DNA from: an uncultured virus (IMG/VR IMGVR_UViG_3300017732_000002)
Lineage: Duplodnaviria; Heunggongvirae; Uroviricota; Caudoviricetes
Strand: one strand, 5' to 3'
Length of the DNA: 54,243 bases
IMG/VR virus record: IMGVR_UViG_3300017732_000002
Made by a program: the position numbers and the translations under genes. Within the stretch, counting starts at the first letter, position 1; each line of letters opens with the position of its first letter. Below are positions 18,808-38,026 of the stretch, piece by piece. Under the pieces are notes generated by a model that saw only the letters and a list, made by a program, of their open reading frames with translations, ran no database searches and was not told the origin of the DNA.

Positions 18808-20334
18808 TTATTTATTGAGTATATTTTTATACTTTTCGTATAACTTTAATTGCGATATGTCACTACAGTCCATATCTTTTATCCATGGGCCACCTCTTGT
18901 ATAATGCACCGCATGATATCTTTTATCTTCGTCTGACATGCCTTCTGTAAAGACATATTTGTCAGGGATTCTATCAATACTATCAGTCCATTCAAACTGG
19001 TGTAAGTATTGACCACTCGCAGTATTTACAACTTCGGGTGTTAATTTTTTACAGTCTTCATGAGCATTATTAAATATCATGAAACTAGACCACAACTTTT
19101 TAGGATACATAACATTCTCTTCACCACCCATTTTAGTCTTAGACATTTTTTCTAGTTCATATTCATATTGAACACATGCTACTGCATTGTCGGGGTGTAG
19201 AAAATAAAACATTTCATACCAAGGTTGTTTCCATACAAAATCATTATCTATGAATATACTAAACCCTTCATAATTTTCTAAGTATGGAATTAAGAATCTG
19301 CTATAAGTAAATTCTGTCGATTGATTTGCGTACTCTCTAGTATATTCGGGAATCTTTGATACGTCAAGTAGTTTTATTTCAGGTTCAAATCTACACTGTG
19401 AGTCATTAACTGCTCTTTGACATGCTTGATTAATAGAATTTATTTGTACGTCTGTTATATCTTCATGTCTTGAATCATACCCAAGATATATGTTTAAAGG
19501 TTTTCCATTGAATTTTTCTGATACCTTTTTAGAAAAATCCTTTACTTTTTCTCTCCATTGTCTATCGGGTTCTGACCTTCCATTATTCCATTCACCCGAA
19601 GTTTGCACTTCAATACTAGTATAATTGTAAGATACATGTAATTGTGTCGGTCTCATGCCGTCAAACTGTGGTGTAGTAAAACTTCTTAACCACTCATCAG
19701 TAGTTAAAGGTTCTATCCAATCAAAGGCGTTATATGCGTCCCAAACAATACAGGTCATACTTTCATCGTCTGTCGCACCGAATACACCTTGTCGTACTGA
19801 GCCAGGGTGTATATGTGGGTTGTATTCAATTCTATCGTTTCTTCCGCTTTTTTGTAATACAATAGTTATCGGTTGATTTAAACCATTCTTCTGAATATCA
19901 TGTAATAACCAATGTCCTTTACACCCATGATAAAATCCCGAACCAGTTATATCATTTCCATCTTCATTTCCACCAGTAATATCTCCCGTTGCGGTAGTTA
20001 TTTTTTTCATACTAGCACCGTAAGTATGGAAATTAGGAATATACTTTAAATAATTAGACGCTTGATAGTCTAATCCAAATGATTCCAAAGGCATGAATCC
20101 GCACTTTTTAATATCACCCCAAGTTACTAATTTCACATTAGGAACATAAACATTATCTACAAAGTATTGTACAACTTTATATGTGTCACATTCAGTATCA
20201 ATAGAACCGTCTTCGTTAACAGGAATATTGCCAATATGGTGACCGCTCTTATAAAAGAGTTGTCTACGAACACTTTCTTGCGTCCAGTCTAGGCGAAATG
20301 GAATAAAATCAATTAAATGGTCAATTTCTGTCAT
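18808..20334 (-). CDS. fusion: ParB/Srx-like N-terminal domain plus GT-A glycosyltransferase (GT8/CDI-like)
   Basis: C-term IYLGYDSR, STEFTYSRFLIPYL, FIDND (DxD), YPKKLWSS, HYTRGGPW; N-term LLHDIQKNGLNQPI...HPGSVR. Confidence 0.8.
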   Translation of the reverse strand: MTEIDHLIDFIPFRLDWTQESVRRQLFYKSGHHIGNIPVNEDGSIDTECDTYKVVQYFVDNVYVPNVKLVTWGDIKKCGFMPLESFGLDYQASNYLKYIPNFHTYGASMKKITTATGDITGGNEDGNDITGSGFYHGCKGHWLLHDIQKNGLNQPITIVLQKSGRNDRIEYNPHIHPGSVRQGVFGATDDESMTCIVWDAYNAFDWIEPLTTDEWLRSFTTPQFDGMRPTQLHVSYNYTSIEVQTSGEWNNGRSEPDRQWREKVKDFSKKVSEKFNGKPLNIYLGYDSRHEDITDVQINSINQACQRAVNDSQCRFEPEIKLLDVSKIPEYTREYANQSTEFTYSRFLIPYLENYEGFSIFIDNDFVWKQPWYEMFYFLHPDNAVACVQYEYELEKMSKTKMGGEENVMYPKKLWSSFMIFNNAHEDCKKLTPEVVNTASGQYLHQFEWTDSIDRIPDKYVFTEGMSDEDKRYHAVHYTRGGPWIKDMDCSDISQLKLYEKYKNILNK

Positions 20335-20360
20335 AATAAAAATCTCACTTATGTGAGTAT

Positions 20361-20367
20361 ATTTAGT
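20361..20367 (-). promoter_or_regulatory. late promoter variant CTAAATA upstream of glycosyltransferase cluster
   Basis: tatttag directly after the stop of the 457-aa repeat gene; small CTCAC/GTGAG hairpin downstream. Confidence 0.6.
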
Positions 20368-20370
20368 GTG

Positions 20371-21744
20371 TTACGAAATAGGTGTTGCAGGCCATTGTTG
20401 TTGTAACACACCGTCCCAACGTTGAACAGGGTTTTGATAGTTCTGCTGGTATGGGTACGGGTTCTGATAGTTCTGTTGGAACGGATACGGGTTCTGATAG
20501 TTCTGTTGGAACGGATACGGATTTTGATAATTCTGTTGGAACGGGTATGGGTTCTGATAGTTCTGTTGGAAATTATATGATGTCTGTGCGTTAGCAGGAT
20601 ACGGATATCTTCCTTGTGCTTGATACGTGCTAGGTTGTCTTGCCTGATACGTAAACGGTGTTCTATAAGACGCCTGATAAGTAGACGGAATTCTATAAGA
20701 CGCTTGATATGTAAATGGATATCTTGCCTGATATGTAAACGGAGTTCTATAAGGCGTCTGATAAGTAAATGGTGACTGTGAGTTCGCAGGATATCTTCCA
20801 CGTGCATTGTTTTGATATGTGCCTGGCTGTCTTGCATTAGCAGGGTATCTTCCTCTTGCGTTATTCTGATAAGTTCCTGGCTGCCTTGCGTTGGCAGGAT
20901 ATCTTCCACGTGCATTTGTATTCGTGTTAGCAGGATACGTTGTATTAGCAGGATACCTACCCCTTGCACTTGTAGTAAAAGGATTCTGACCGTTATAAAC
21001 TATCCCGTCTTTCATGAATGAGAAAGTGAAAGGTTGTCTCGCAGGTGTAATAAATGGATATCTTGCCTGATACGTTGTAGGTGCCTGATATGTTGTAGGT
21101 GCAATAAACGGATATCTTGCCTGATACGTAAATGGTGACTGTGAGTTAGCAGGGTATGTAAATGGATATCTTGCCTGATACGTAAATGGACTTTGTGAGT
21201 TAGCAGGATAAGTAAATGGATATCTTGCCTGATAAGTTCCTGGCTGTCTCGCATTAGCAGGATATGTGCCTGGCGATTGTCCGTTAGCAGGATATCTTCC
21301 TCTAGCATTTGCAGGATATGTGCCAGGCGTCTGAGCGTTAGCAGGATATGTGCCTGGCTGTTGTCCATTAGCAGGATAAGGTGCCTGTGCATTGGCAGGA
21401 TATGGATATCTTCCTTGCGCCTGATAAGTGCTTGGCGACTGTCCTGATGCAGGTCTTTGTGCTTGAAGTCTACCAGTCGCAGGTCTTCTTGCAGGTGTTG
21501 TTCCTATTGCAGGTCTTTGTGCCTGTAATTGACCAGTTGCAGGTCTTTGTGCTTGAAGTCTACCAGTTGCAGGTCTTCGAGCAGGTTGTTGTGTATCTTC
21601 TTGACCACTAGCATTATTCCACCCGTCAGGCGTTTTAATATAGACTTGCTCTACTGCACGCCAACCGTCAGGCGTTTTAACCCACGCACCTTGAGTTGCG
21701 TTCCAGCCTGTAGGTGTTTTAACCTTCTGTGAGCCTGATGCCAT
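20371..21744 (-). CDS. Tyr/Pro/Gln/Arg-rich repeat protein 1; predicted long beta-hairpin virion appendage
   Basis: N-terminal (V/I)KTPxGW x3 module; repeats RPATGxLQAQ, YQARYPFT, ARGRYPAN, QQNYQNPYPF in mirror order. Confidence 0.85.
   Translation of the reverse strand: MASGSQKVKTPTGWNATQGAWVKTPDGWRAVEQVYIKTPDGWNNASGQEDTQQPARRPATGRLQAQRPATGQLQAQRPAIGTTPARRPATGRLQAQRPASGQSPSTYQAQGRYPYPANAQAPYPANGQQPGTYPANAQTPGTYPANARGRYPANGQSPGTYPANARQPGTYQARYPFTYPANSQSPFTYQARYPFTYPANSQSPFTYQARYPFIAPTTYQAPTTYQARYPFITPARQPFTFSFMKDGIVYNGQNPFTTSARGRYPANTTYPANTNTNARGRYPANARQPGTYQNNARGRYPANARQPGTYQNNARGRYPANSQSPFTYQTPYRTPFTYQARYPFTYQASYRIPSTYQASYRTPFTYQARQPSTYQAQGRYPYPANAQTSYNFQQNYQNPYPFQQNYQNPYPFQQNYQNPYPFQQNYQNPYPYQQNYQNPVQRWDGVLQQQWPATPIS
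20425..20572. repeat. five 30-bp tandem coding repeats (QQNYQNPYPF)
   Basis: gggttctgatagttctgttggaacggatac-like units; boundaries approximate. Confidence 0.9.
21445..21590. repeat. five 30-bp tandem coding repeats (RPATGxLQAQ)
   Basis: gcaggtctttgtgcttgaagtctaccagtt-like units; boundaries approximate. Confidence 0.85.
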
Positions 21745-27766: not shown

Positions 27767-28099
27767 TTACCTCGTTACGCCTGGCGTTACTGTTGCTTGT
27801 CCTTCAACGACACGACTTATTGAACCGCCACTGTCCGTTATCAATAAATCATATACATATCTTCCTGCTTCTAAAGCAGTTGTAATAGTATCAGTTAATG
27901 TCATTGTAACTGTTCCACCAACTCCATTATGTGAACATGTAAAGGTTGCGGCCGCATTTGAAGAACCATATGTTTTTCTTAATTGGGCAGTCGCAGTAAA
28001 TCCAGTGAGATTCAATACATCACCTACTGTATCTGTTAGGTCAACTTGTATAGCAAAGTCTGTACCTTGGTCTATGAATATGTTTGCGATTATTGCCAT
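27767..28099 (-). CDS. virion structural protein (BppU-like adaptor fold)
   Basis: NIFIDQGTDF, NLTGFTA.AQLRK.Y.S, GRYVYD, RVVEG.ATVTPGVTR; TATAAATA at 28105-28112. Confidence 0.75.
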   Translation of the reverse strand: MAIIANIFIDQGTDFAIQVDLTDTVGDVLNLTGFTATAQLRKTYGSSNAAATFTCSHNGVGGTVTMTLTDTITTALEAGRYVYDLLITDSGGSISRVVEGQATVTPGVTR

Positions 28100-28116: not shown

Positions 28117-29529
28117 TTATGATTTACTAAATTGAGCTGCTGGAACTGTTTGGTGAGTTTTTTCTAGTGTTCCTTGATTATTTACATATACTTCTTGTAA
28201 TTTTCTTAAAGTTCCAGCGTCATTCAAGTACACCGCTTTAACTTTGGCAGCTGCACCAATACTTCTAGTTGTAGAATATGGTTGTTGGAAAATATAATTT
28301 TGTTGATAGTTCTGCTGGAACGGATATGGATTCTGTGCACTAGCAGGATATCTTCCTCTAGCATTTGCAGGATATGTAAATGGATACCTTCCCTGTGCTT
28401 GATAAGTGCCTGGCTGACGTGCAGTATAAATGAATGGATATCTTCCACGTGCGTTTGCTTGATAACTAAACGGTTGTTGTCCATTTGCTTGAGCTGGATA
28501 CATACCACGTGCACTAGCAGGATATCTTCCTCTTGCTTGGTAAGTTGCAGGGTATGGATATCTTGCTTGATAAGTGAATGGATAAGGCCCTTGAGCATTT
28601 TTTTGGTGTTGTGTACTACCCTGTCCCTGCCCATTGGTAATATAAGGTTGTTGACTTTGCTGTGTAAATGGATATCTTCCAGTTGCAATATATGGTTGTT
28701 GTGTTCTTGGAGTAAACGAATAAGGCTGTTGATACGCATAAGGAATCGGAAACTGTGAATTCAATTCAGGTTCTGGCCAAGGAGTTGTACCATTTACAGG
28801 TCTTCTTCCATTGGCAATAGAAGGTGTACGACCTCTTACATTCTGTGACCCTTGATAATATCCTTGTCTATTAGCAGGCCTTCGACCTTGGGCATTTGTG
28901 CCTGGGTCTTTAGGGTCAAAACTAAAAAAGAACGGATATGGAACTTGATATCCGTGAGGCCCAAAAAGGGGAGTAGATGTAGTAAACGGATATCTTGCCC
29001 TATTGACTACCTGTGTCCTCGCTGAATATGGATATGTACCACGGTGGTTAGCAGGACTAGGTCTACGGGCGCTATAGGTATACGGAAAAGTATATGCTAT
29101 TTGATAATTTTGTTGATAAGGATATGTACCACTTGCATTAGCAGGATATCTTCCCTGTGCTGTATAGTTTGCAGGATACGGATACCTTGCTTGATAAGCG
29201 AATGGATATCTTGCGATATATTCAAACGTATAGGGATTTTGTCCTATCGCAGGATAAGTAAATGGATATTGTCCTTGTGCTGAAGCAGGATATGGCGTCT
29301 GAGAGTTTGCAGGATATGGATATCTTCCACGTGCGTTTGCTTGGTAAGTAAATGGATATCTTGCCTGATAAGTAGTCGGAGTTTGACCAGTTACAGCTCT
29401 TTGTGCCTGCAAAGTACCCGTAACAGCTGCTTGACCTTGATACGGTTGTTGAAAATTGCCTGAACTACCTAATTGTCCTAGTTGACTATGCGGAGTGTTC
29501 TTGGTGTTTATATATATTTCGTCTGACAT
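28117..29529 (-). CDS. Tyr/Pro/Gln/Arg-rich repeat protein 2; predicted branched beta-hairpin appendage
   Basis: Same repeat vocabulary as 20371-21744; C-terminal KVKAVYLNDAGTLRKLQEVYVNN module. Confidence 0.85.
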   Translation of the reverse strand: MSDEIYINTKNTPHSQLGQLGSSGNFQQPYQGQAAVTGTLQAQRAVTGQTPTTYQARYPFTYQANARGRYPYPANSQTPYPASAQGQYPFTYPAIGQNPYTFEYIARYPFAYQARYPYPANYTAQGRYPANASGTYPYQQNYQIAYTFPYTYSARRPSPANHRGTYPYSARTQVVNRARYPFTTSTPLFGPHGYQVPYPFFFSFDPKDPGTNAQGRRPANRQGYYQGSQNVRGRTPSIANGRRPVNGTTPWPEPELNSQFPIPYAYQQPYSFTPRTQQPYIATGRYPFTQQSQQPYITNGQGQGSTQHQKNAQGPYPFTYQARYPYPATYQARGRYPASARGMYPAQANGQQPFSYQANARGRYPFIYTARQPGTYQAQGRYPFTYPANARGRYPASAQNPYPFQQNYQQNYIFQQPYSTTRSIGAAAKVKAVYLNDAGTLRKLQEVYVNNQGTLEKTHQTVPAAQFSKS

Positions 29530-29546
29530 TACACATTACTCATTCA

Positions 29547-31136
29547 CTATATCACAAACCAAAGGTGACCGTCAGAAGTTGAACCAACTGAGCCTGGAGC
29601 TGAGTTAGTTACTTCGTAGTCAATTTGCACATCATCTGCATTGACTTTTATACCTTTACCTGCGCCGATATTTATGGTGTTTTCTCCTGTAGCTTCTGTA
29701 GTTGCAAGCATACCAGCACCACCTTCAATATCACTGTGAATGGTTAATGTATTAGCGGAATCATTATAAGTTAAATCTATACCATTTCCACCTACTAGTC
29801 CACCGCCACCTAAGAAATCTAGGACATCTTCATTACCGTATTGAGCAGAACCATTAATTGTTAATGTGTTACTTGCATCGTCATATACAGTTGCTATACC
29901 TGTTCCACCAACTATCAGTGCATTAACTCTATCGTCAACTCTTTCGTTTGTAAAATATAAATTACTTGAACCTTCTGTCACACTGTCAGAAGTATTTTGG
30001 TCTGTAGCTTCGTATCTGCTATTACTTGAACTATAAACAAGTATCTGTCCGTCACTTGGGGCACTTCCACCAACGTCACTCAATCCTGTAATACTATGAT
30101 TAGAAATATCAGAAGTTGTACCTGTTAAAGTTCCTGTAAATGTACCTGTAATAGTTTTATTTGTTAAAGTCTGAGTATCAGTTGTACCAACTAATTCTTG
30201 GTCACCACCTGCAGGAAGTGTTAATGTATTTGTAACACCTTCACTATGTGGTTGAGGTCTAATAGTTTGACCATGAGAGTTAACATGACAGTTAAGTCTA
30301 ATCTGTCCTTCGGTTGAACCACCACCTCTAAATTCTGTTATGTATGTTGCTGAATTAACTTGAATATTACCTGAACTTGAACTCAACGGCCCAATGTGTG
30401 TTCCTGTAGTATCACCTGCAACGTTACCTGTTAAGTTACCAGCAAACGAAGTAGAAGTTATACTTGTCCAACCAGTACCATTACCACCAGTAAATGTTCC
30501 TGTTCCGTCTGTAATTGTTGGAGCAGTAAATGTATGACCAGTATCAACTGATAGATTACCGTCAACTTTAGTTACGCCTTCTAACTGAATGTTTATACCA
30601 GTATCTAATGAAGTGATAGAAGGAGTATTGGTTGCGTTTAATACTATACCATTACTATTATGGTTAAAGATTGTATTGTTTGCAGTTTCTGTAAATAGAG
30701 AACTACCACCGACACCACCACCTTGAACTGTTAAGAATGAACCAGTAAAGGCATGGATTGCGATTTTATCACCTGTGGTAGCACCTGAAATAAGTGTAAT
30801 CTGTTTGAATGTTCCGTCTGATTGTTGACTTGCTAAAACATAGTCGTCACCAACTCTTAACAATGCACCATTTTTATAAACCTGTATTCTATCTTTCTTG
30901 AATACTAGGTCATTACTAAATGCGTCATTTCCTGTAAATGCAGTTTGTCCACTGGTCGCAGTATAAAGAAACTCTTGATAGAAGAATGTTTTATCTTCTA
31001 TACTATTGATTGCGTCTATTAGGTTTCCTGTAACGTCTGTTCTTAAGCCAGAGATATCCCCAACGTCATTTGCTAAATCGTTGTAACGAGTTCTAAAGTT
31101 TTCTAACGTACTAAATTGGTCAATCGTTTTTGCCAT
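29547..31136 (-). CDS. fibre-like structural protein (529 aa)
   Basis: TLENFRTRYN N-terminus, ATSGQTAF/VYKNG module, TDTQTLTNKT, EGSSNLYFTNERVDDRV, ends DGHLWFVI. Confidence 0.75.
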   Translation of the reverse strand: MAKTIDQFSTLENFRTRYNDLANDVGDISGLRTDVTGNLIDAINSIEDKTFFYQEFLYTATSGQTAFTGNDAFSNDLVFKKDRIQVYKNGALLRVGDDYVLASQQSDGTFKQITLISGATTGDKIAIHAFTGSFLTVQGGGVGGSSLFTETANNTIFNHNSNGIVLNATNTPSITSLDTGINIQLEGVTKVDGNLSVDTGHTFTAPTITDGTGTFTGGNGTGWTSITSTSFAGNLTGNVAGDTTGTHIGPLSSSSGNIQVNSATYITEFRGGGSTEGQIRLNCHVNSHGQTIRPQPHSEGVTNTLTLPAGGDQELVGTTDTQTLTNKTITGTFTGTLTGTTSDISNHSITGLSDVGGSAPSDGQILVYSSSNSRYEATDQNTSDSVTEGSSNLYFTNERVDDRVNALIVGGTGIATVYDDASNTLTINGSAQYGNEDVLDFLGGGGLVGGNGIDLTYNDSANTLTIHSDIEGGAGMLATTEATGENTINIGAGKGIKVNADDVQIDYEVTNSAPGSVGSTSDGHLWFVI

Positions 31137-31359
31137 TTGTTCTCTCTAATATTTCACCTAATAGTTGTTTTATCTCTGTCATTTCTACTTTTAAAGTATT
31201 TATTTCCTCTCGCTGTATTTGAAAAACTTTTTTTCTTCTAATAGCAGCTTGATATCCGTTGATATCATTATTAATAATCGCACTTGAACTTTCTTCTCTA
31301 AGTAGAGTCGAATGTCCTTCTACTTTTGCATGTCCTTTTTCGTAAGCGAACTTTGACAT
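31120..31359 (-). CDS. conserved small coiled-coil protein downstream of VrlC-like gene
   Basis: KVEGH..L.R...S.AIIN.D...Y, EI..LK.E..EIK.LL. Confidence 0.75.
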   Translation of the reverse strand: MSKFAYEKGHAKVEGHSTLLREESSSAIINNDINGYQAAIRRKKVFQIQREEINTLKVEMTEIKQLLGEILERTNGKND

Positions 31360-31363
31360 AATA

Positions 31364-34300
31364 TTATGTTGCTAATGCAATCGCTCTCAGGTTACTTACA
31401 AGTGGGACTGTGGAAGTATTAGTTGACTGTCCTACAATCTTAATTGCAAATGCTGAGAACTCTGCTAGTCCCTCTTGAGTATAATTATATTCTTTAAAGT
31501 TTCTTGCGTCATTTCCTACAGCGATATCTGGCGAACCGTCTGTATTAAAATATCTCCAACCGATATCATCGAATGGTGTCGAGTTATCGTTTTCTAACAC
31601 CTTGTAAAGAACTTTTAAATCAGTTCCCGAAGGTCTAAATCCGTCTAACATTACCTTCACGGCGGTGCCAGGCGTAGCCAGAGACGCCTTTCTTGTACAG
31701 TATACAAATGCATTGTTGTCACCATCGGGTTCCGTAGAATCAACATATGTGATTCCTGTAGGTACATCTGAACTACTGTCTATGTTATTTAATCTGTTCA
31801 TGATACCTAATGCACCTAAAGAAGAAATGTCAATCATTGGTGACAAGTTACCCCTAGGTGATTGCATTTGCAAAGTACAAGTAAATGACTTCACACTTGC
31901 CATTTCATTAGTTTCATTGATAGGTGAAGCAACAATCGAAGGTTGGTCTAAGAAGTGGTTATCATTTAATGTGATAAACTCTGCAGTATTGTTTTTAACA
32001 TATGCAGTTCCACCAACACCTTCTGGCGATTTCATTGCAGTTGTTCTAATATTAGTATGCAACAATGTTCCTTTCAATTGAACACTTGGTATCATTGTGT
32101 GTATTGTATCGAAGTAATAGTTTCTTTGTGCGGTTGCGTTTCCACCACCACTTTGTGTGCTTTCTAGAGCAACATAACCTGTTTTAAGGTCTGTACTAGA
32201 CAAGTCGGGTATTACCGTATAACTATCAATGTCTGTTCCTGAGATAGCGGTGTATGTTCCATTGATACATGATATTGGAATACCACCGATTGTTTGGTCT
32301 ACTGTGTCAATGTCAATTTCTACTGTGTTAGTTGCACTACCAAAGTTTGTTACTGTTAGTTTGTTTGAAGTTGTATATCCAAAGCCAGGGTCTGCAATTT
32401 TAATTGAAGTTATACTTCCACTTGATACAGTGATATCTAATTTACAACCTGTTCCTGAACCGTCAGTAGTTGTCGCAACTCCTGTTGAAGTAGAACCCAT
32501 GGTTCCAGTTGTTGCTATTGAACCTTCTGCTTCTATGTTTATAATCGCACCAGTTTTTTCTCCTGTAACTCCCGCTATAACAGCGTTAGAAGAATTATCA
32601 TACATACCGTGTCCATATGCATAAACTCTTACGTAGTTTTCACCAGCATATGATTCGATTGGATTATTTTGTAAAGGTGAAGCTTCTAATGCTTTGTTAT
32701 TAAATTTAACAATAGGTCTCTTAGAAATATCAAACCTTGCATACTTCAAATGGAACTTGAGGTCATCTGTTTGTTCTGCAGTCCATGTTGAAGCATTTTG
32801 AGATGCGAATAATGAACCAGCATATGGTTGTCCTGAAATTGTTTGTCCTGTTACTAAGTCTGTTTCACCCATTCTTGAAATGAATGCTTCATACTTGTTA
32901 GAGTTTGAAAGAACTACAAAACAATATTCTTGATTCTGTTCTAAGAATACTGGACTTTGGAATGTGAATGTTGTAGAAACTGAACCGTCCTGTGACAAAT
33001 TAACGTCTGCAGGATTTTTTGTAACCTCTGAGAACGGTAATATAATTTGGCCAGGATATCCATTAACCATGTTTCTAATTTCTACAGATACAGGTAAACT
33101 CTCGTCTTTAGTTTTAAAGAACAAGTCTACTTCTGTTAAGTACATACCACCACTTTTATCAACTAAGAATGATTGTGCAAGCGGATCCATCCACCCACCA
33201 AATTCAAATACATTGAAATCAAAATCAAAATCTATGTTTAACGGTAGATTTATGTTAGGTATTGGTGGCGGTGGCAACGGCGGGTCTTCCCTTGGTGGGT
33301 CAGGTTCCGCTGGTGGAGTTGCTGGAAAATTAGGGTCAGGTAATGGTACTGGTGGTGCGTCAGTATCCACATTACGTGAGTTCATTTGTTCACCACGTCT
33401 TGTTATCTGTCTTTCACCCGCTGTAGCACCTACTATAGTTCTACCATTTCTAGTAGAAATAATTTCTGTTTGATTAGTTTGTAGTAAACCTTGAGCACTA
33501 AATTGTGCTTGACCACCCGATGAAGGGTTAGATTCATTGTATACACTTGACGTTACTTTTAAGTCTCTTTGACCTGTAGGGAATCTATCTGGCCCATTAT
33601 TAGGTAAATCAAAGTATGCACGAACTCTACCGTTACCATCTGCTTTAATTCCTGATGTAACACCTGTTCCACCGTCCTGAGAATAAGTTGCATTGAATGG
33701 TCTTACGAATCTGTTTACGTCTTGTTGGTCAAAGAATACGTAATGGAATGAATCAGGTTTTAAGTTTACTGCGTCAATCTCAATTGTTTGAGCACGTATA
33801 AATGGAATAACAGATATACTTACAACTCTGTCATTTCTATCTTCTACAAAATCTTCTACTACAGTAGTTCTAATACCAGTTCTACTTTGTGTTTCAATCG
33901 TATTTGTTATTTCTCTTGATACTTCTGTACCCGATACCCATTCACCACCTTGTGCTGGGTCACCACTCCATGAACCACTAGAAGTCGATAGAACCTCTGT
34001 AGACACAGTTGTAGGTTCTCCTACCCAGTTTGTTTGCCATGCATTCCAAACAGTTCCAAGGTCTGCACTTTCAGCTAACAATGCGTCAAAGTTACCTTCT
34101 CTGTTTATTCTTACTTCGGGTAATTGTGTTTGGTCTTGCCATATATCAGAAGCAGGAGTCAGACTTACATTTCCAATAAATGCAAATACGTGATAAGGGT
34201 TAACATTCATTGCCCTTGACGCTTTACTTTGATTTACATAAGTTGTACTTGTATAAGGTAAAGTAATTAAGTCACCCGTCTTTTGAAACTCTGAACTGTT

Positions 34301-37300
34301 AACTGAATCGAATTCAATATCGAAGAAGTTTTGGAAGTTCTTAGGTCTCAGTACGCCTGATTTCGTATCGACTGAACAATTATAATCTATATGGTTAACG
34401 TCTCCGACATTATGTCCTTTAAATGAATCCACAACAAAACCTGATTTGAATCTATCAAATCCGTCTGCATCTTTAAACTGCATTGTTTGTGTATCTCTTT
34501 CTAATAGAGATAGTGTTGTTAATCTTTCTAAGTTAGCAACACGATTTGATATCTTACCGATATCTTTCATTGTAAACCTTCTATGGTCTACACTTCTTAA
34601 TCTTACTCTCTTTAAATCGTCTGTGTAAGGTGGAATTCTTAACTCGTATAATTCAATTGCATCGTCAATACCTTTTGGTTTCATAGGAGTCAATGCAGGT
34701 GTTCCTTGAGCTATTTGGAATTCACCGTCTTTGTGTAAGAAGACTTTGTCAATTCTTCCAACATAGAAACTAATATCACCAACTACGTTTGAGCCTGGCA
34801 CTGGTACGTCTACCGCACTAGCACCTGTTGCTGAGATACCTGTTACAGCAGATTCAAATGATTTACTTGCATATGCAAATGGTGATGAAACAATACCCGA
34901 AGTCGTATTACTAATATTAATTGGTGATTCGGGGTTAGGTGTTGCTGAACCAAAAGTAGTTGTACCTAATAGTTGTCCTAATACTGGTCTAAAGTCTACT
35001 GCGTCTGCTAATTCAAACTCACCGTCAGGTTCTAAACCACCTAAGTCTACTTTACTTGGAACGTATCTAGGAATAGTTTCATAATCGATACCACTGTATG
35101 AATTTACGTCAAAGAAGTCACCGTTACCACTTGAAGTAAAGTAATCAAGTAAAACTAGTATCTGATTGTTAGCAGTTGGATTTCCTGGCTTCAATTGTAA
35201 TCTACCATGGTCATAGAATCCATCTCTTTGTCCATCGTCAAAGTAATATCTGTCTGTTATGTTTGTTGCACCTTGGTCAAAATTAGTTAAGTTACCAGTT
35301 GCTTTTGAAGTCTGTCCTACAAGAACTTCACCTTCTATAAATGTTTTGTTTAATGTGGTATAATAAAAATAACTCTTATTTGTAGAACCATTGTAATTTA
35401 CAATTACCGCACGTGCGTCTGAGGTATTACCTTTTATGACCTCAAAACTTTGAAATGGTATAGCAGGACTTGATGTCTCTGTAATTGTTCCCGAAGGTGG
35501 TAGAGGTGCAGTTGCACCATTACCTTCATAGATTGCACGAACTTTAAATACGTCTGCAACACCTAGGGATATTTCTTTATCGTTATAACATGTTCCGTAG
35601 AATCCACCTGTGGTTCTAGAGTTTACAACTGAGAGACACCTTGCTTGTTTTAGTGACTTATCTCTGTTAACTGGTGAATTAATATCTACAGTAAATGTTA
35701 CTTTTAGAATTGCACCGTCATCAGCAGTTGGGAACCCACTGAATTCTAAGTTGTTTCCTGAAATTGTATCTGTAAATGGTGCACCACTTAAGTTGTTGAC
35801 AACGTCAACCATGTCACCATTTACTAATGTAGGTGAACCTGATGTTTGTGCTTCTACAACTGAGAAGATATAGTTATCATCTGTTCTTGTTGAAAAGGAT
35901 TCTCCTGAACCACATGTAAGTGTAATTGTACCACTTGACAATGTTACGTTTTGTGACCTTCTTACTTGTACTTGGTCGGGTGTATGTGTTTTTACATAGT
36001 CTCTTGGCCATGCAAATATGGACGCAACTTGTTCTTGGTCAAATACTCTTGTTCTTCGTCTAGTTGCGTTTGCGTTTGTTAAAGCAGTTCCTACCGCACC
36101 TGTTAGTGTAGCAGCTATATCACTGGTTATAGAAGAAATAACTCTTTCGTTACCAGCACCGTCAATAACTATATCACCTTCTTTAAGTTCTGCAGTAAAT
36201 TTAGTTGCAAAACCTGTTACACTTGTAGAAGACATTGATACTTGACCAGTTAATATAAAGTCTTGGTCTGTGTATATGTCTGCAGTGAATGTTTCTCTTG
36301 CGGTTACATTTGGTGCTTGTGATATTCCACGAACTCTGTCAATATTATATGTTCTTACTTCGTTAGCAGTTCCTCTAAAATTCTCACCAGTATGTTGACC
36401 AGCTGACATTGCAAAAGAACCATTTGTTGAACTGATTGCGTCTGCTGAAGTAAATGTTCCTACTACGTCATGGACGTATAATGCACCTGAACCATCGTCA
36501 TAACCGACAATAGCAGTTGCACCTGATACTGAACCTGTAATCTTATCACCAACTACTGCAGTACCACTATGTGCACTGTACTTAAGTTTGGTAAACATTT
36601 TGATATCAAATAGATATGCATTAAACCTAGTTGCATTATCCCAAACTTCTGAACTGTTTGAAGTTCCAGCAGTTGCCATATCAAAGTTTCTAATTCTTGC
36701 GAAACCAATTTGTCCACTAGTGTTTTCAGTTCCAGGCGTTGCTGTTACTGCGTCAAAAAGTTTTACGATACCATATGGTTTCTGTGCGTCTGTTCCTGAC
36801 TCATTACCGAATTCAGGAAGACCGTGTGAGTTTATTACTTTTACAAAGTTACCTAGTCTAACTGGTGTTGATGCACCTGTAAGACTTGCGGTGCTTCTTG
36901 CTTTTCTGATTGGTATAGTAGAGCCTACTAGTTTATCTACTTGGTATCCTTTAACATATGCTTTACCAGCAGAAGTTTTAACTACGAATTTAGATTCGTC
37001 ACCACCGTTAATTGTTGAATATACACCACCATTAGTTCCGTCATCTAAATGTTCTTTAAGATTTGGTACAAATTGGTTTACAATAAAATCACCCGAAGTA
37101 TCAAATGTTCTTTGTGCAAGTAAGTTTGCAAATGCATTGTACTCAGGTCTTTGGATTGACAGTTCCATGATTCCATTGTTAACTCTCATTAACTCAATGA
37201 AGTTTGCGTCTGTAGTGGAATCTATAAGATGTTTTGCTAAAGTTAATTCTATTTTTAATCTGTCAGCACCAGCTGCGTTCTCGTTAGAAGAACCCTGTGC

Positions 37301-38026
37301 ATTATCAAATAATGTAGAGTCTGTTGAAGAACCAACTAAAGTTTCTGCAATCTCTAGTCCGACTCTATAACTTGGTGCACCTGAATATTTTTCAAGTGTT
37401 ATTTGTTGTTGATTAACCTTAGTAAAAAACCCTCTAGTAAAAATAATACCTTCTTGGATTTCTGCTAATGAAGAACGTCCAACTGGTGTATGAGTTGAGT
37501 CCTTAATTTTTAATTCGTTGTTGTTACTTGCAGAAGAAGCTGAACCGTTTGCATCTATTGTGACTTCTTTTAGTTCTTCTCCTGCTGAAAATCTAATAGA
37601 GTTATTTGTATCAGAACCTGACTTATACATTCTGACAATGTACGTGATAGGGTCAGTTGAAGTTTCTGCATATGAAGTTACTACCTGTGCAACTGCACCT
37701 GTAGTTTCACCTTGTAGATATTTGTTATCAAAAGTAGTTCTATAATTTTCTACACCAGTTGTTCCCAAACCATTAGGGTTGGTACTCTCAACTTTTACAT
37801 ACATAACGTCCATGTCCACGTTTGATTCAGCACCAGTAATGATACTTCCTTCTTTGAACATGTGGTCACCAAATCTTTCAATTTGGTTTTGTAGAATAGA
37901 TTGAGCTTGTGTTAACTCTCTTGCCTGTATCGGTCTACTAGGACGATAAAGTACCTTATGATACTTTTTATCTTCATCATAATCGTCATAATAAGGCGAT
38001 ACATTTAAGTCTACTTTCTCAGGCAT
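31364..38026 (-). CDS. large baseplate-associated structural protein, VrlC/DUF4815-like (2220 aa)
   Basis: LNVSPYYDDY...K.Y.KVLYRP..PIQARELTQ.QSILQNQIERFG; GADRLKI; RFKSGFVVDSF; DPLAQSF. Confidence 0.9.
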   Translation of the reverse strand: MPEKVDLNVSPYYDDYDEDKKYHKVLYRPSRPIQARELTQAQSILQNQIERFGDHMFKEGSIITGAESNVDMDVMYVKVESTNPNGLGTTGVENYRTTFDNKYLQGETTGAVAQVVTSYAETSTDPITYIVRMYKSGSDTNNSIRFSAGEELKEVTIDANGSASSASNNNELKIKDSTHTPVGRSSLAEIQEGIIFTRGFFTKVNQQQITLEKYSGAPSYRVGLEIAETLVGSSTDSTLFDNAQGSSNENAAGADRLKIELTLAKHLIDSTTDANFIELMRVNNGIMELSIQRPEYNAFANLLAQRTFDTSGDFIVNQFVPNLKEHLDDGTNGGVYSTINGGDESKFVVKTSAGKAYVKGYQVDKLVGSTIPIRKARSTASLTGASTPVRLGNFVKVINSHGLPEFGNESGTDAQKPYGIVKLFDAVTATPGTENTSGQIGFARIRNFDMATAGTSNSSEVWDNATRFNAYLFDIKMFTKLKYSAHSGTAVVGDKITGSVSGATAIVGYDDGSGALYVHDVVGTFTSADAISSTNGSFAMSAGQHTGENFRGTANEVRTYNIDRVRGISQAPNVTARETFTADIYTDQDFILTGQVSMSSTSVTGFATKFTAELKEGDIVIDGAGNERVISSITSDIAATLTGAVGTALTNANATRRRTRVFDQEQVASIFAWPRDYVKTHTPDQVQVRRSQNVTLSSGTITLTCGSGESFSTRTDDNYIFSVVEAQTSGSPTLVNGDMVDVVNNLSGAPFTDTISGNNLEFSGFPTADDGAILKVTFTVDINSPVNRDKSLKQARCLSVVNSRTTGGFYGTCYNDKEISLGVADVFKVRAIYEGNGATAPLPPSGTITETSSPAIPFQSFEVIKGNTSDARAVIVNYNGSTNKSYFYYTTLNKTFIEGEVLVGQTSKATGNLTNFDQGATNITDRYYFDDGQRDGFYDHGRLQLKPGNPTANNQILVLLDYFTSSGNGDFFDVNSYSGIDYETIPRYVPSKVDLGGLEPDGEFELADAVDFRPVLGQLLGTTTFGSATPNPESPINISNTTSGIVSSPFAYASKSFESAVTGISATGASAVDVPVPGSNVVGDISFYVGRIDKVFLHKDGEFQIAQGTPALTPMKPKGIDDAIELYELRIPPYTDDLKRVRLRSVDHRRFTMKDIGKISNRVANLERLTTLSLLERDTQTMQFKDADGFDRFKSGFVVDSFKGHNVGDVNHIDYNCSVDTKSGVLRPKNFQNFFDIEFDSVNSSEFQKTGDLITLPYTSTTYVNQSKASRAMNVNPYHVFAFIGNVSLTPASDIWQDQTQLPEVRINREGNFDALLAESADLGTVWNAWQTNWVGEPTTVSTEVLSTSSGSWSGDPAQGGEWVSGTEVSREITNTIETQSRTGIRTTVVEDFVEDRNDRVVSISVIPFIRAQTIEIDAVNLKPDSFHYVFFDQQDVNRFVRPFNATYSQDGGTGVTSGIKADGNGRVRAYFDLPNNGPDRFPTGQRDLKVTSSVYNESNPSSGGQAQFSAQGLLQTNQTEIISTRNGRTIVGATAGERQITRRGEQMNSRNVDTDAPPVPLPDPNFPATPPAEPDPPREDPPLPPPPIPNINLPLNIDFDFDFNVFEFGGWMDPLAQSFLVDKSGGMYLTEVDLFFKTKDESLPVSVEIRNMVNGYPGQIILPFSEVTKNPADVNLSQDGSVSTTFTFQSPVFLEQNQEYCFVVLSNSNKYEAFISRMGETDLVTGQTISGQPYAGSLFASQNASTWTAEQTDDLKFHLKYARFDISKRPIVKFNNKALEASPLQNNPIESYAGENYVRVYAYGHGMYDNSSNAVIAGVTGEKTGAIINIEAEGSIATTGTMGSTSTGVATTTDGSGTGCKLDITVSSGSITSIKIADPGFGYTTSNKLTVTNFGSATNTVEIDIDTVDQTIGGIPISCINGTYTAISGTDIDSYTVIPDLSSTDLKTGYVALESTQSGGGNATAQRNYYFDTIHTMIPSVQLKGTLLHTNIRTTAMKSPEGVGGTAYVKNNTAEFITLNDNHFLDQPSIVASPINETNEMASVKSFTCTLQMQSPRGNLSPMIDISSLGALGIMNRLNNIDSSSDVPTGITYVDSTEPDGDNNAFVYCTRKASLATPGTAVKVMLDGFRPSGTDLKVLYKVLENDNSTPFDDIGWRYFNTDGSPDIAVGNDARNFKEYNYTQEGLAEFSAFAIKIVGQSTNTSTVPLVSNLRAIALAT

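What the first reader, a model, noticed from the sequence alone, without database searches (positions are those of the whole stretch)
28270..29442. Second self-complementary protein forms a three-way junction (Y-branched hairpin)
Seen in sequence: in the 470-aa protein, residues ~30-172 pair with ~278-420 at i+j=450. 20 of 21 stem Gly face Tyr/Phe (e.g. G32/Y418, Y58/G392, G68/Y382, Y70/G380, Y146/G304, F148/G302, Y150/G300, G164/Y286, Y166/G284); the exception is G374/S76. The enclosed segment resolves into two smaller hairpins. One has register 413 around FSF-DPKD (Y180/G233, Y198/G215, Y194/A219; nt ~28819-29004). The other has register 511 around PEPELN (G241/Y270, G247/Y264, W251/F260; nt ~28708-28818). 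The repeats are far more degenerate than in protein 1 yet the code holds, so selection acts on pairing rather than repeat identity. Inference: a forked filament with two tips.
Basis: partly seen in the sequence, partly recalled or inferred. Interest (0 to 1): 0.92.

Follow-up and report, generated by a model that had tools for sequence, protein, structure and literature searches.

The report
Self-zipping stalk protein of marine phage
A 470-residue protein in the host-recognition gene cluster of an uncultured marine T4-like phage has two 143-residue arms that match residue by residue when read in opposite directions, most likely zipping into a long thin stalk, while the proposed forked tip is not supported.

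Summary
The main observation holds. In ORF 28117..29529 (-), 20 of 21 stem Gly face Tyr/Phe at i+j=450. With aromatic versus Gly/Ala, the register scores 54 pairs against 32 for the next best. Shuffling the repeat units gives a mean of 29.5 and a maximum of 40, and 0 of 2000 shuffles reach 54.

The register is under selection:
- A 61%-identical relative lost 10 residues at mirrored places in both arms.
- In 24 of 38 single-chain relatives (443-611 aa), the interior register equals the one set by the conserved ends.
- In 38 of 70 related loci the protein is split into two adjacent genes. In most cognate pairs the arrays match each other antiparallel and do not match non-cognate partners.

The forked tip is not supported. 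Registers 413 and 511 give 4 and 3 pairs, and shuffles of the tip give a maximum of 4-9.

Structure predictions gave no confident fold.

I read it as the stalk of a host-recognition fibre. Its conserved ends probably dock on the LtfC/p132-like protein encoded just downstream.

This scan noted the same protein earlier on other DNA (e1-6001162).

The parts
28117..29529 (-). Gene of the 470-aa self-complementary protein (W470), stop codon included
   Evidence: ORF list. 115 relatives at E<=1e-3 with conserved ends. No Pfam family.
29443..29529 (-). Residues 1-29: conserved N-terminal base motif (MSDEIYIN ... QQP)
   Evidence: M1, D3, I5-N8 and Q27-Q33 are invariant in 19 sequences. AlphaFold2 places a strand at 3-8 at low confidence.
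29014..29442 (-). Residues 30-172: N arm of the stalk (repeat units of 8-20 residues)
   Evidence: Pairs with 278-420 at i+j=450.
28699..29013 (-). Residues 173-277: tip or connector, the most variable part
   Evidence: 41 of 105 residues identical to P0001, against 92 of 143 and 85 of 143 in the arms. No register above chance. No similarity to the heads of split relatives, best E 2.5. pLDDT about 30-39.
28270..28698 (-). Residues 278-420: C arm of the stalk, antiparallel partner of the N arm
   Evidence: The 10-residue indel at 341-350 mirrors the one at 99-108.
28120..28269 (-). Residues 421-470: conserved C-terminal base module (AKVK ... EKTHQTVPAAQFSKS)
   Evidence: Invariant columns A428-K431, N436, K443, Y448, K457, H459, Q460, P463. 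phrog_13729 (function unknown) at residues 425-461, E 6.1e-6. Predicted strands 430-437 and 440-443, pLDDT about 55.
27767..28099 (-). 110-aa Ig-like protein with LtfC/p132 collar fold, the likely docking adaptor
   Evidence: phrog_3304 'L-shaped tail fiber protein assembly' E 1.7e-23. AlphaFold2 pLDDT 88.9. Best PDB folds 8hqz_Q (TMq 0.80) and 7qg9_J (0.76). Present in 69 of 70 related loci; in the 26 loci where I measured, it starts 15-72 nt downstream on the same strand.
20371..21744 (-). Paralogue of 457 aa with the same two-face code in its own register (i+j=491)
   Evidence: 62 aromatic-small pairs at 491, next best 42. Its arms do not match those of W470 (cross 25-32, cognate 61 and 52).
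29547..38026 (-). Conserved upstream neighbours: a 529-aa fibre-like protein and a 2220-aa DUF4815 protein
   Evidence: Pfam and PHROGs. Homologues found in 53 and 46 of 70 related loci.

Best explanation
W470 is the single-chain form of a two-strand 'zipper stalk' used by a clade of uncultured marine T4-like phages in their host-recognition gene cluster.

Shown by sequence:
- Residues 30-172 and 278-420 are complementary in antiparallel register, position by position, with a period of two.
- On one face, every pair puts an aromatic residue (Tyr/Phe) opposite Gly or Ala.
- On the other face, Pro sits opposite Gln/Arg/Thr, Asn opposite Thr and Arg opposite Arg.
- The repeat units have irregular lengths (8, 10, 12, 20 residues), so only one register fits.
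- That register is kept in relatives by matched insertions and deletions. It also holds between two separate proteins where the gene is split.

Inferred:
- The arms form a long two-stranded antiparallel beta ribbon of 143 pairs. That is roughly 47-50 nm if fully extended at the usual 3.3-3.5 A per residue.
- The aromatic/small face is probably buried by association of ribbons, in an unknown oligomeric state.
- The prolines lie on the face whose backbone NH groups point away from the partner strand, and probably block sideways sheet growth.
- The hairpin brings the conserved N-terminal motif and the conserved C-terminal module together at one end. There they probably dock on the virion through the Ig-like LtfC/p132-like protein encoded 21 nt downstream, as the lateral fibres of T5-like phages do.
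- The variable 105-residue connector forms the distal end. Split relatives carry an exchangeable 116-346-residue head domain at this place, probably for receptor binding.
For: Mirror register:
- 54 aromatic-Gly/Ala pairs at i+j=450 against 32 for the next register. 0 of 2000 unit shuffles reach 54 (maximum 40).
- 52 of 72 even-face pairs are aromatic-small, with none aromatic-aromatic or small-small. All 36 stem Pro lie on the odd face.
- Each arm scores only 17-18 against itself, and 25-32 against the arms of the paralogue.

Selection on pairing:
- P0001 (61% identical) lacks W470 residues 99-108 and 341-350, which mirror to 342-351 and 100-109.
- In 24 of 38 distinct single-chain relatives with recognisable anchors (443-611 aa, many closely related), the best interior register equals exactly the one set by the conserved end motifs.

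Pairing in trans:
- 38 of 70 IMG/VR loci encode two adjacent genes. A has the N motif, an array and a head. B has an array and the C motif.
- In 20 of 27 distinct A/B pairs, the cognate antiparallel peak is at least 1.3 times the next register (for example 65 vs 34, 60 vs 35, 55 vs 33).
- Non-cognate pairs stay at 15-47 unless they are close relatives.
- In the four pairs I displayed, B runs along the whole A array and its Met1 abuts the start of the head of A.
- The same two-face code holds in the pooled pairs: A.Y 628, A.F 245, G.Y 237; P.Q 864, P.R 464, N.T 353; Pro 1569 on one face against 46 on the other.

Structure prediction:
- AlphaFold2 placed its only long strands at 27-46 and 404-423. 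Both end pairs sum to 450, but pLDDT is only about 40.

Context:
- The gene lies two genes downstream of the DUF4815 giant protein, among fibre-like proteins and next to T4-type baseplate genes.
- In pelagimyophages and cyanomyophages the region after VrlC is described as the host recognition cluster (PMC7029224, passages read).

Adaptor:
- The 110-aa neighbour models at pLDDT 88.9. It resembles best the 139-140-aa chains of the DT57C and T5 tail tips.
- LtfC/p132 is the collar that anchors lateral fibres by beta-strand augmentation (PMC10713586 and PMC10038345, passages read).
- The neighbour is present in 69 of 70 loci.

Heads:
- The heads of A proteins fall into at least 12 unrelated BLAST clusters among the 27 pairs, while the ends and the neighbouring genes are conserved.
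Against: - No structural model supports the ribbon beyond its base. AlphaFold2 gave mean pLDDT 33.6 and pTM 0.17, with residues 47-403 as coil. The ESM Atlas model has pLDDT 0.39.
- All evidence for pairing is sequence statistics. It shows that the two arms are matched, not that they touch, and not whether they pair within one chain or between chains.
- Exceptions exist:
  - 14 of 38 single-chain relatives do not show the anchor register as the best interior one. This includes a clade with few Gly/Ala (maxima 10-13) and four proteins offset by 3 residues.
  - P0008 has an unmatched 36-residue deletion in the C arm.
  - 7 of 27 A/B pairs have no clear peak.
- Many compared sequences are close relatives, so the counts overstate the number of independent events.
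- The link to the LtfC-like adaptor rests on gene adjacency and fold. The Pfam LtfC match is below its cut-off (19.5 bits against 27). A PDB sequence-profile search did not find LtfC. I inferred which chains of 8hqz and 7qg9 matched from their lengths, because the table gives only entry titles.
- Nothing shows that the protein is in the virion.
Confidence: 0.7

Rival explanations
1. Out-and-back trimeric needle of the T4 gp37 kind. Three chains each run out and return, and the six strands intertwine. In that case the aromatic-small complementarity at i+j=450 is partly between different subunits, not within a two-stranded ribbon.
For: - In gp37 the D10 domain is built from residues 811-881 and 1010-1026 of the same chain, the needle is a trimer, and G921 in a strand packs against F970 of another subunit (PMC6957217, passages read).
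- W470 lies in a fibre gene cluster.
- One face of the W470 ribbon is uniformly aromatic/small and must be buried somehow.
Against: - There are no His-x-His metal sites (5 His in 470 residues, none in that spacing).
- There is no sequence relation to gp37 or gp12. Pfam finds nothing and a PDB profile search gives 0 hits.
- Pro at about every fourth position of each strand, all on one face (36 in the stem), would break the edge hydrogen bonds that a closed six-stranded sheet needs. This last point is my inference.
- The oligomeric state could not be tested.
Confidence: 0.2
2. Y-branched hairpin. The 105-residue centre folds into two further small hairpins (registers 413 and 511), giving a three-way junction with two tips.
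For: - The named pairs exist.
- All 3 named pairs of register 511 (G241/Y270, G247/Y264, W251/F260) are kept at one register in P0001 and L004, as A226/Y255, G232/Y249 and W236/F245.
Against: - 4 and 3 pairs are no more than shuffles of the same 105 residues give (best register 4-9, mean 5.2, 5000 shuffles).
- Registers 417 and 421 score higher (5 each) than the proposed ones.
- Only 1 of 3 register-413 pairs survives in P0001, and not at one register.
- Split relatives have a globular head here.
- AlphaFold2 gives no strands in 173-277.
Confidence: 0.07
3. The arms pair between molecules, not within one. The N arm of one chain zips onto the C arm of another, giving swapped dimers or open head-to-tail filaments.
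For: - Sequence complementarity cannot tell cis from trans.
- In split relatives the same pairing is by necessity intermolecular.
Against: - A 105-residue connector allows the intramolecular hairpin, which should be favoured entropically (inference).
- The conserved N and C end modules co-vary as one base. In split relatives they lie at the same end of the A/B duplex.
Confidence: 0.08
4. Low-complexity Tyr/Pro/Gln-rich repeat protein without a fixed fold (adhesive or disordered). The mirror pattern would be a by-product of repeats that are roughly self-complementary on reversal and were duplicated.
For: - Composition: Q 60, Y 57, P 56, A 51 of 470 residues.
- Structure predictors see no fold.
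- The arms share a 124-nt direct repeat at 75% identity.
- Regular 10-residue arrays in one-way relatives give several near-equal anti-diagonals (P0022: 24, 23, 22).
Against: - Unit order matters: 0 of 2000 unit shuffles reach the observed score, and reversing the unit order of the C arm drops the maximum from 54 to 34.
- Neither arm matches itself (17-18 against 52).
- Indels are matched at mirrored places.
- Cognate A/B specificity holds across loci.
Confidence: 0.05

Closest known systems
Needle (domains D10-D11) of the phage T4 long tail fibre protein gp37
   Same: It is a fibre part in which each chain runs out to a tip and returns, so that N-side and C-side segments lie side by side. A Gly in a strand packs against a Phe. 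It is a host-recognition fibre of a T4-type phage (PMC6957217, passages read).
   Different: gp37 is a trimer with seven iron sites formed by His motifs. Its out-and-back part spans about 200 residues. W470 has no such His motifs and no sequence relation to gp37. W470 has 143 matched pairs with a strict period-two, two-face code and a Pro-rich face, and its family also exists as two separate chains.
Lateral tail fibre anchoring system of T5-like phages (LtfA/pb1 with the LtfC/p132 collar)
   Same: A small Ig-like protein is encoded next to the fibre gene. The W470 neighbour has this fold (TMq 0.80 and 0.76 to the 139-140-aa chains of 8hqz and 7qg9). In T5 and DT57C, the terminal strands of the fibre are held by augmenting the sheets of the collar protein (PMC10713586 and PMC10038345, passages read).
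   Different: LtfA continues as a trimeric alpha-helical coiled coil, whereas W470 has no predicted helix. The host phage here is a T4-like myophage, not a siphophage. Docking of W470 on the 110-aa protein is inferred, not shown. The Pfam LtfC match is below its cut-off.
Cross-strand aromatic-glycine pairs in beta sheets ('aromatic rescue', mortise-tenon motif of beta barrels)
   Same: A Tyr or Phe covers a Gly on the neighbouring antiparallel strand. This is a known stabilising pair (bioRxiv 10.1101/2020.10.22.346965, two passages read). The original description by Merkel and Regan is recalled, not read.
   Different: It is known as an isolated local motif. Here it is repeated at every second position over 143 pairs (52 of 72 pairs on that face) and is combined with a second code on the other face.
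Coiled-coil zippers (heterospecific leucine zippers), as a functional analogy only
   Same: Two extended chains recognise each other along their length through a short periodic code. Cognate partners are distinguished from paralogues (cognate 52 and 61 against cross 25-32).
   Different: Those are alpha-helical with a heptad period. Here the period is two, which points to beta strands, and the register is fixed by irregular unit lengths. The analogy is from my own knowledge and was not tested.

Membership tests
T4 gp37-type needle (out-and-back trimeric fibre tip) | The chain runs out and returns, so N-side and C-side segments are antiparallel neighbours | tested here: met
   Met at the sequence level only. 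The antiparallel register i+j=450 is unique. AlphaFold2 strands at 27-46 and 404-423 fit it, at low confidence.
T4 gp37-type needle (out-and-back trimeric fibre tip) | Repeated His-x-His motifs that bind iron along the needle | tested here: not met
   5 His in 470 residues, none in His-x-His spacing (sequence).
T4 gp37-type needle (out-and-back trimeric fibre tip) | Sequence or profile similarity to gp37, gp12 or gp10 collar and needle domains | tested here: not met
   0 Pfam families. 0 PDB chains at E<=1 with the family profile. No tblastn hit among 50,697 phage records.
T4 gp37-type needle (out-and-back trimeric fibre tip) | Homotrimer | not testable with these tools
   Three full copies (1410 residues) exceed the size limit of the complex tool, so no oligomer was modelled.
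T5/DT57C lateral fibre with LtfC/p132 collar | An Ig-like LtfC/p132 collar protein encoded beside the fibre gene | tested here: met
   110-aa neighbour: pLDDT 88.9. Top PDB folds 8hqz_Q and 7qg9_J, E about 1e-8. phrog_3304 E 1.7e-23. Present in 69 of 70 loci. The Pfam LtfC match is below its cut-off.
T5/DT57C lateral fibre with LtfC/p132 collar | A fibre terminus inserted into the collar by beta-strand augmentation | not tested
T5/DT57C lateral fibre with LtfC/p132 collar | A trimeric alpha-helical coiled coil following the anchoring strands | tested here: not met
   No helix in the AlphaFold2 model. Pro makes up 56 of 470 residues.
Disordered Tyr/Pro-rich low-complexity repeats | No long-range register and interchangeable repeat order | tested here: not met
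   Unit shuffles destroy the signal (0 of 2000 reach it). Indels are matched at mirrored places. A/B pairing is cognate-specific.
Any curated protein family (Pfam, PHROGs) | Match above threshold | tested here: not met
   Pfam finds none. PHROGs gives only phrog_13729 (function unknown) on residues 425-461.

The most novel reading that the evidence does not exclude
This family is a sequence-programmed beta zipper. Two extended strands of 140 to about 320 residues find each other in a single register, within one chain or between two proteins. They do so through a two-face pairing code: aromatic opposite Gly/Ala on one face, and Pro opposite Gln/Arg/Thr with Asn opposite Thr on the other. Irregular unit lengths act as a barcode that sets the register, the partner and the rod length. 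That would be a beta-strand counterpart of the coiled-coil zipper, and a natural length-programmable rod that phages use to hold exchangeable receptor-binding heads at a set distance.
Probability: 0.5. Interest if true: 0.9.

Novelty: new variant of a known kind. Interest (0 to 1): 0.8.

Why it matters
- **A new way to build a rod.** If the arms really zip, this is a stiff protein rod tens of nanometres long made from two strands only. Its register and partner choice are written in a simple residue code that can be read from sequence. I found no described precedent in my literature searches or in PDB, Pfam and PHROGs. The scan's earlier notes on near-identical DNA reached the same reading.
- **Phage biology.** The family marks a variable slot in the host-recognition cluster of abundant uncultured marine myophages. 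The stalk length varies from about 143 to 323 pairs and the distal head varies between at least 12 unrelated types, while the ends and the neighbouring adaptor stay conserved. That is the pattern expected of a host-range determinant.
- **Protein design.** The fused and split forms, and the two orthogonal paralogues in one phage, offer natural test sets for a beta-strand pairing code.

Tried and rejected
- **AlphaFold2 on W470 with a 19-sequence alignment.** Mean pLDDT 33.6. It is usable only as a weak hint for the base strands. No coordinate file was available in the script box, so no contact map could be read.
- **Complex prediction of the two arms as separate chains (residues 1-172 and 278-470).** The verdict was 'no answer' (scores 0.00 and 0.01, mark 0.32). 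It counts neither for nor against.
- **ESM Atlas.** Its own model has pLDDT 0.39 and its neighbours are only unnamed viral proteins.
- **Cultured-phage collection.** No tblastn or megablast match for the protein or for 6 kb around it. The C-terminal 60 residues gave only hits at E 0.3-0.5. The relative P0092 gave none.
- **PDB sequence searches.** The family profile gave 0 hits. The profile of the 110-aa neighbour gave only weak adhesin hits at E>=0.034.
- **DNA-level explanation.** There are 0 inverted repeats of 14 nt or more in the gene, so the mirror pattern is not a nucleic-acid palindrome.
- **Gly-only count.** It does not single out one register (450 and 452 tie), so I replaced it with aromatic against Gly/Ala.
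- **Global residue shuffle.** Rejected as too weak a null for a repeat protein and replaced by unit shuffles.
- **Anchor check for A/B pairs.** My anchor patterns recognised both anchors in only 8 of 27 A/B pairs. The registers agreed in all 8, and the other 19 were not assessed.
- **Tip against heads.** The W470 tip has no similarity to the heads of split relatives (best E 2.5).
- **Idea not pursued.** The Hint domain at the end of some A proteins might join A to B. I considered this unlikely, because the B proteins next to the four A proteins that end in a Hint-like domain (L008, L040, L043, L049; Pfam matches above cut-off only for L043 and L049) start with MA, MP, MS and MP, with no conserved Cys/Ser/Thr nucleophile at the second position.
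Full report
**What is there**

The finding lies in ORF 28117..29529 on the minus strand (470 aa). The protein is rich in Gln, Tyr, Pro, Ala, Thr, Gly and Arg and is built of degenerate units such as RYPFTYQA and RGRYPYPANA.

The window is a T4-like myophage. gp5-, gp6-, gp7- and gp8-like baseplate genes lie at 38-47 kb. The closest cultured relatives of the gp8-like protein are below 40% identity: Pelagibacter phages Mosig and HTVC008M, then Synechococcus phage Syn9.

W470 lies two genes downstream of a 2220-aa DUF4815 protein, among Thr/Gly/Ser-rich fibre-like proteins. For pelagimyophages and cyanomyophages, the region that follows VrlC has been called the host recognition cluster (PMC7029224, passages read). 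That DUF4815 is the VrlC family is my recollection, not a tool result.

**Checking the observation**

- In the stem (30-172 with 278-420), 20 of 21 Gly-containing pairs at i+j=450 face Tyr/Phe.
- Gly alone does not fix the register. 452 gives 19 of 21, and 450 and 452 tie at 21 over the whole protein.
- Counting aromatic against Gly or Ala gives 54 pairs at 450 and at most 32 anywhere else.
- I cut the arms into their repeat units and shuffled the unit order. The best register then had a mean of 29.5 (sd 2.6, maximum 40), and 0 of 2000 shuffles reached 54. Reversing the unit order of the C arm gave 34.
- Parallel registers between the arms reach 30, and each arm against itself 17-18.
- The gene has no inverted DNA repeat, so this is a property of the protein.

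The pattern has period two:

| Face | Pairs in the stem |
|---|---|
| Even (72 pairs) | A.Y 25, G.Y 18, A.F 7, F.G 2; no aromatic-aromatic, no small-small |
| Odd (71 pairs) | P.Q 20, N.T 10, P.R 9, P.T 5, R.R 4; holds all 36 stem prolines, never Pro opposite Pro |

**Is it selected?**

Three lines say yes.

1. *Matched indels.* P0001 (61% identity, 443 aa) differs from W470 by a 10-residue gap at 99-108 and a 10-residue gap at 341-350. Under i+j=450 these mirror each other to within one residue. Its own register (423) is again unique, 51 against 34.
2. *Register conservation.* Among 41 distinct single-chain relatives, 38 had both conserved end motifs recognisable. In 24 of these 38, the best register of the interior equals exactly the register defined by the end motifs, although lengths run from 443 to 611 aa. 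The end regions were left out of the interior count. The 14 misses are:
   - a clade poor in Gly/Ala with weak signal (maxima 10-13);
   - four proteins whose interior is offset by 3;
   - P0008, which has an unmatched 36-residue deletion.
   Many of these sequences are close relatives, so they are not 38 independent tests.
3. *Pairing between two proteins.* Of 70 related IMG/VR loci, 24 have the single-chain form and 38 have two adjacent genes. The other 8 are cut by contig ends or did not fit my motif patterns.
   - Gene A carries the N motif, a repeat array and a C-terminal domain.
   - Gene B starts with MAIGQ-like residues and carries an array and the C motif.
   - Among 27 distinct A/B pairs, the cognate pair shows one dominant antiparallel register (65 vs 34, 60 vs 35, 55 vs 33 and so on). 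The peak is at least 1.3 times the next register in 20 of 27 pairs.
   - Non-cognate combinations give 15-47 unless the loci are close relatives.
   - In the four pairs I displayed, the match runs from the conserved start of A to the residue before its C-terminal domain, with Met1 of B next to that domain.
   - The pooled pairs use the same two-face code.

The two paralogues in this window, W470 and the 457-aa protein at 20371..21744, each match themselves (52 and 61 pairs) and not each other (25-32).

**The forked tip**

Inside residues 173-277, the proposed registers 413 and 511 hold 4 and 3 aromatic-small pairs. Two other registers hold 5. Shuffles of the same residues give a best register of 4-9.

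In P0001 and L004, all 3 named pairs of register 511 are kept at one register. Only 1 of 3 pairs of register 413 is kept. A small hairpin around WPEPELNSQF is therefore possible, but a three-way junction is not supported.

The tip is the most variable part: 41 of 105 residues are identical to P0001, against 92 of 143 and 85 of 143 in the arms and 43 of 50 at the C end. It resembles none of the heads of split relatives.

**Structure prediction**

- AlphaFold2 with 19 aligned relatives gave mean pLDDT 33.6.
- Its only long strands are 27-46 and 404-423, whose ends both sum to 450. This is a weak hint for the base of the stem.
- I could not read contacts.
- The ESM Atlas model is as poor.

**What it most likely is**

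The period of two, the strict antiparallel register and the placing of all prolines on one face fit a two-stranded antiparallel beta ribbon. In such a ribbon the aromatic/small pairs would form one face, and the Pro-containing pairs would be the ones whose backbone NH groups point outward. This is inference from standard beta-sheet geometry.

Aromatic residues covering Gly across strands are a known stabilising pair. Here the pair is used serially.

With 143 pairs the rod would be about 47-50 nm long if extended. In split relatives, about 167-323 pairs would give proportionally longer rods.

The hairpin puts both conserved ends at one end of the rod. Immediately downstream (21 nt) lies a 110-aa gene:
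- It models confidently (pLDDT 88.9).
- It resembles best the 139-140-aa chains of the DT57C and T5 tail tips (TMq 0.80 and 0.76).
- By their length I take those chains to be LtfC/p132, the Ig-like collar that anchors lateral fibres by strand augmentation (PMC10713586 and PMC10038345, passages read).
- Its homologue is present in 69 of 70 loci. The one miss (L005) ends at the contig edge. In the 26 loci I checked it starts 15-72 nt after the stalk gene or genes.

I therefore propose that the conserved ends dock on this adaptor. The distal end, a small connector in W470 and a 116-346-aa head in A proteins, would then meet the host. The heads fall into at least 12 unrelated clusters. Docking, oligomeric state and virion location are all inferred.

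**Comparison with what is known**

- The T4 gp37 needle shares the out-and-back topology and a Gly-Phe contact. It is a metal-bound trimer with no sequence relation to W470.
- The T5-type fibre anchor shares the adaptor fold but not the fibre.
- No Pfam family, PHROG with a known function, PDB chain or cultured-phage gene matches W470.
- My literature searches found no description of such a protein. The library lacks most subscription journals.
- This scan had already noted the same protein and its paralogue on other DNA and reached the hairpin reading (e1-6001162, e1-6001169). I re-derived the register statistics and the matched indel myself. I also added the split-gene evidence, the test of the fork and the adaptor.

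**Verdict**

The main stem is real, conserved and unusual. The fork is not supported.

Noticed in passing
L006-L070 (for example L010:2353-5032, L008:2289-4753, L006:4001-5937): In 38 of 70 related loci the stalk protein is encoded as two adjacent genes, often overlapping or abutting. A has the N motif, an array and a head. B has an array and the C motif. Their arrays are mirror-complementary only with the cognate partner.
   Followed up: yes
L043:2042-3766, L049:993-2750 (also L008, L040 below threshold): Some A proteins end in a Hint (intein/Hedgehog-type) domain after the head. Pfam PF14623 and PF05203 score above cut-off in L043, and PF05203 scores above cut-off in L049. The domain may be an autoprocessing or chaperone module. 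Several protein hits (P0024, P0029, P0046) carry it too.
   Followed up: partly
window 27767..28099 (-): A 110-aa protein with a confident Ig-like model. Its best structural matches are the 139-140-aa chains of the T5 and DT57C tail tips (the LtfC/p132 collar by length). It is 62-100% identical across 69 of 70 related loci.
   Followed up: yes
window 20371..21744 (-): A 457-aa paralogue with about 184 matched pairs at i+j=491 (62 aromatic-small pairs against 42 for the next register). Its conserved KVK...GW hairpin-like motif sits at the N end instead of the C end. Its arms do not match those of W470. The ORF 20349..20969 in another frame overlaps it and is probably spurious.
   Followed up: partly
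P0008; L053, L054, P0027, P0028: Exceptions to the equal-arm rule. P0008 lacks 36 residues of the C arm with no matching loss in the N arm. In the other four proteins the interior register is 3 higher than the register of the end motifs, which implies an odd bulge.
   Followed up: no
window 28461-28584 and 29085-29208: A 124-nt direct repeat at 75% identity links part of the C arm to part of the N arm. The arms therefore share ancestry by direct duplication, although they match in antiparallel.
   Followed up: no
window 31364..38026 (-): A 2220-aa protein with DUF4815 (E 1.9e-64) and phrog_358. It is conserved at about 54% identity in 46 of 70 related loci and marks the start of the variable fibre cluster.
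   Followed up: no
window 18808..20334 (-): A 508-aa non-repetitive protein (phrog_28018, function unknown) directly downstream of the paralogue. It looks like an enzyme and not a fibre.
   Followed up: no
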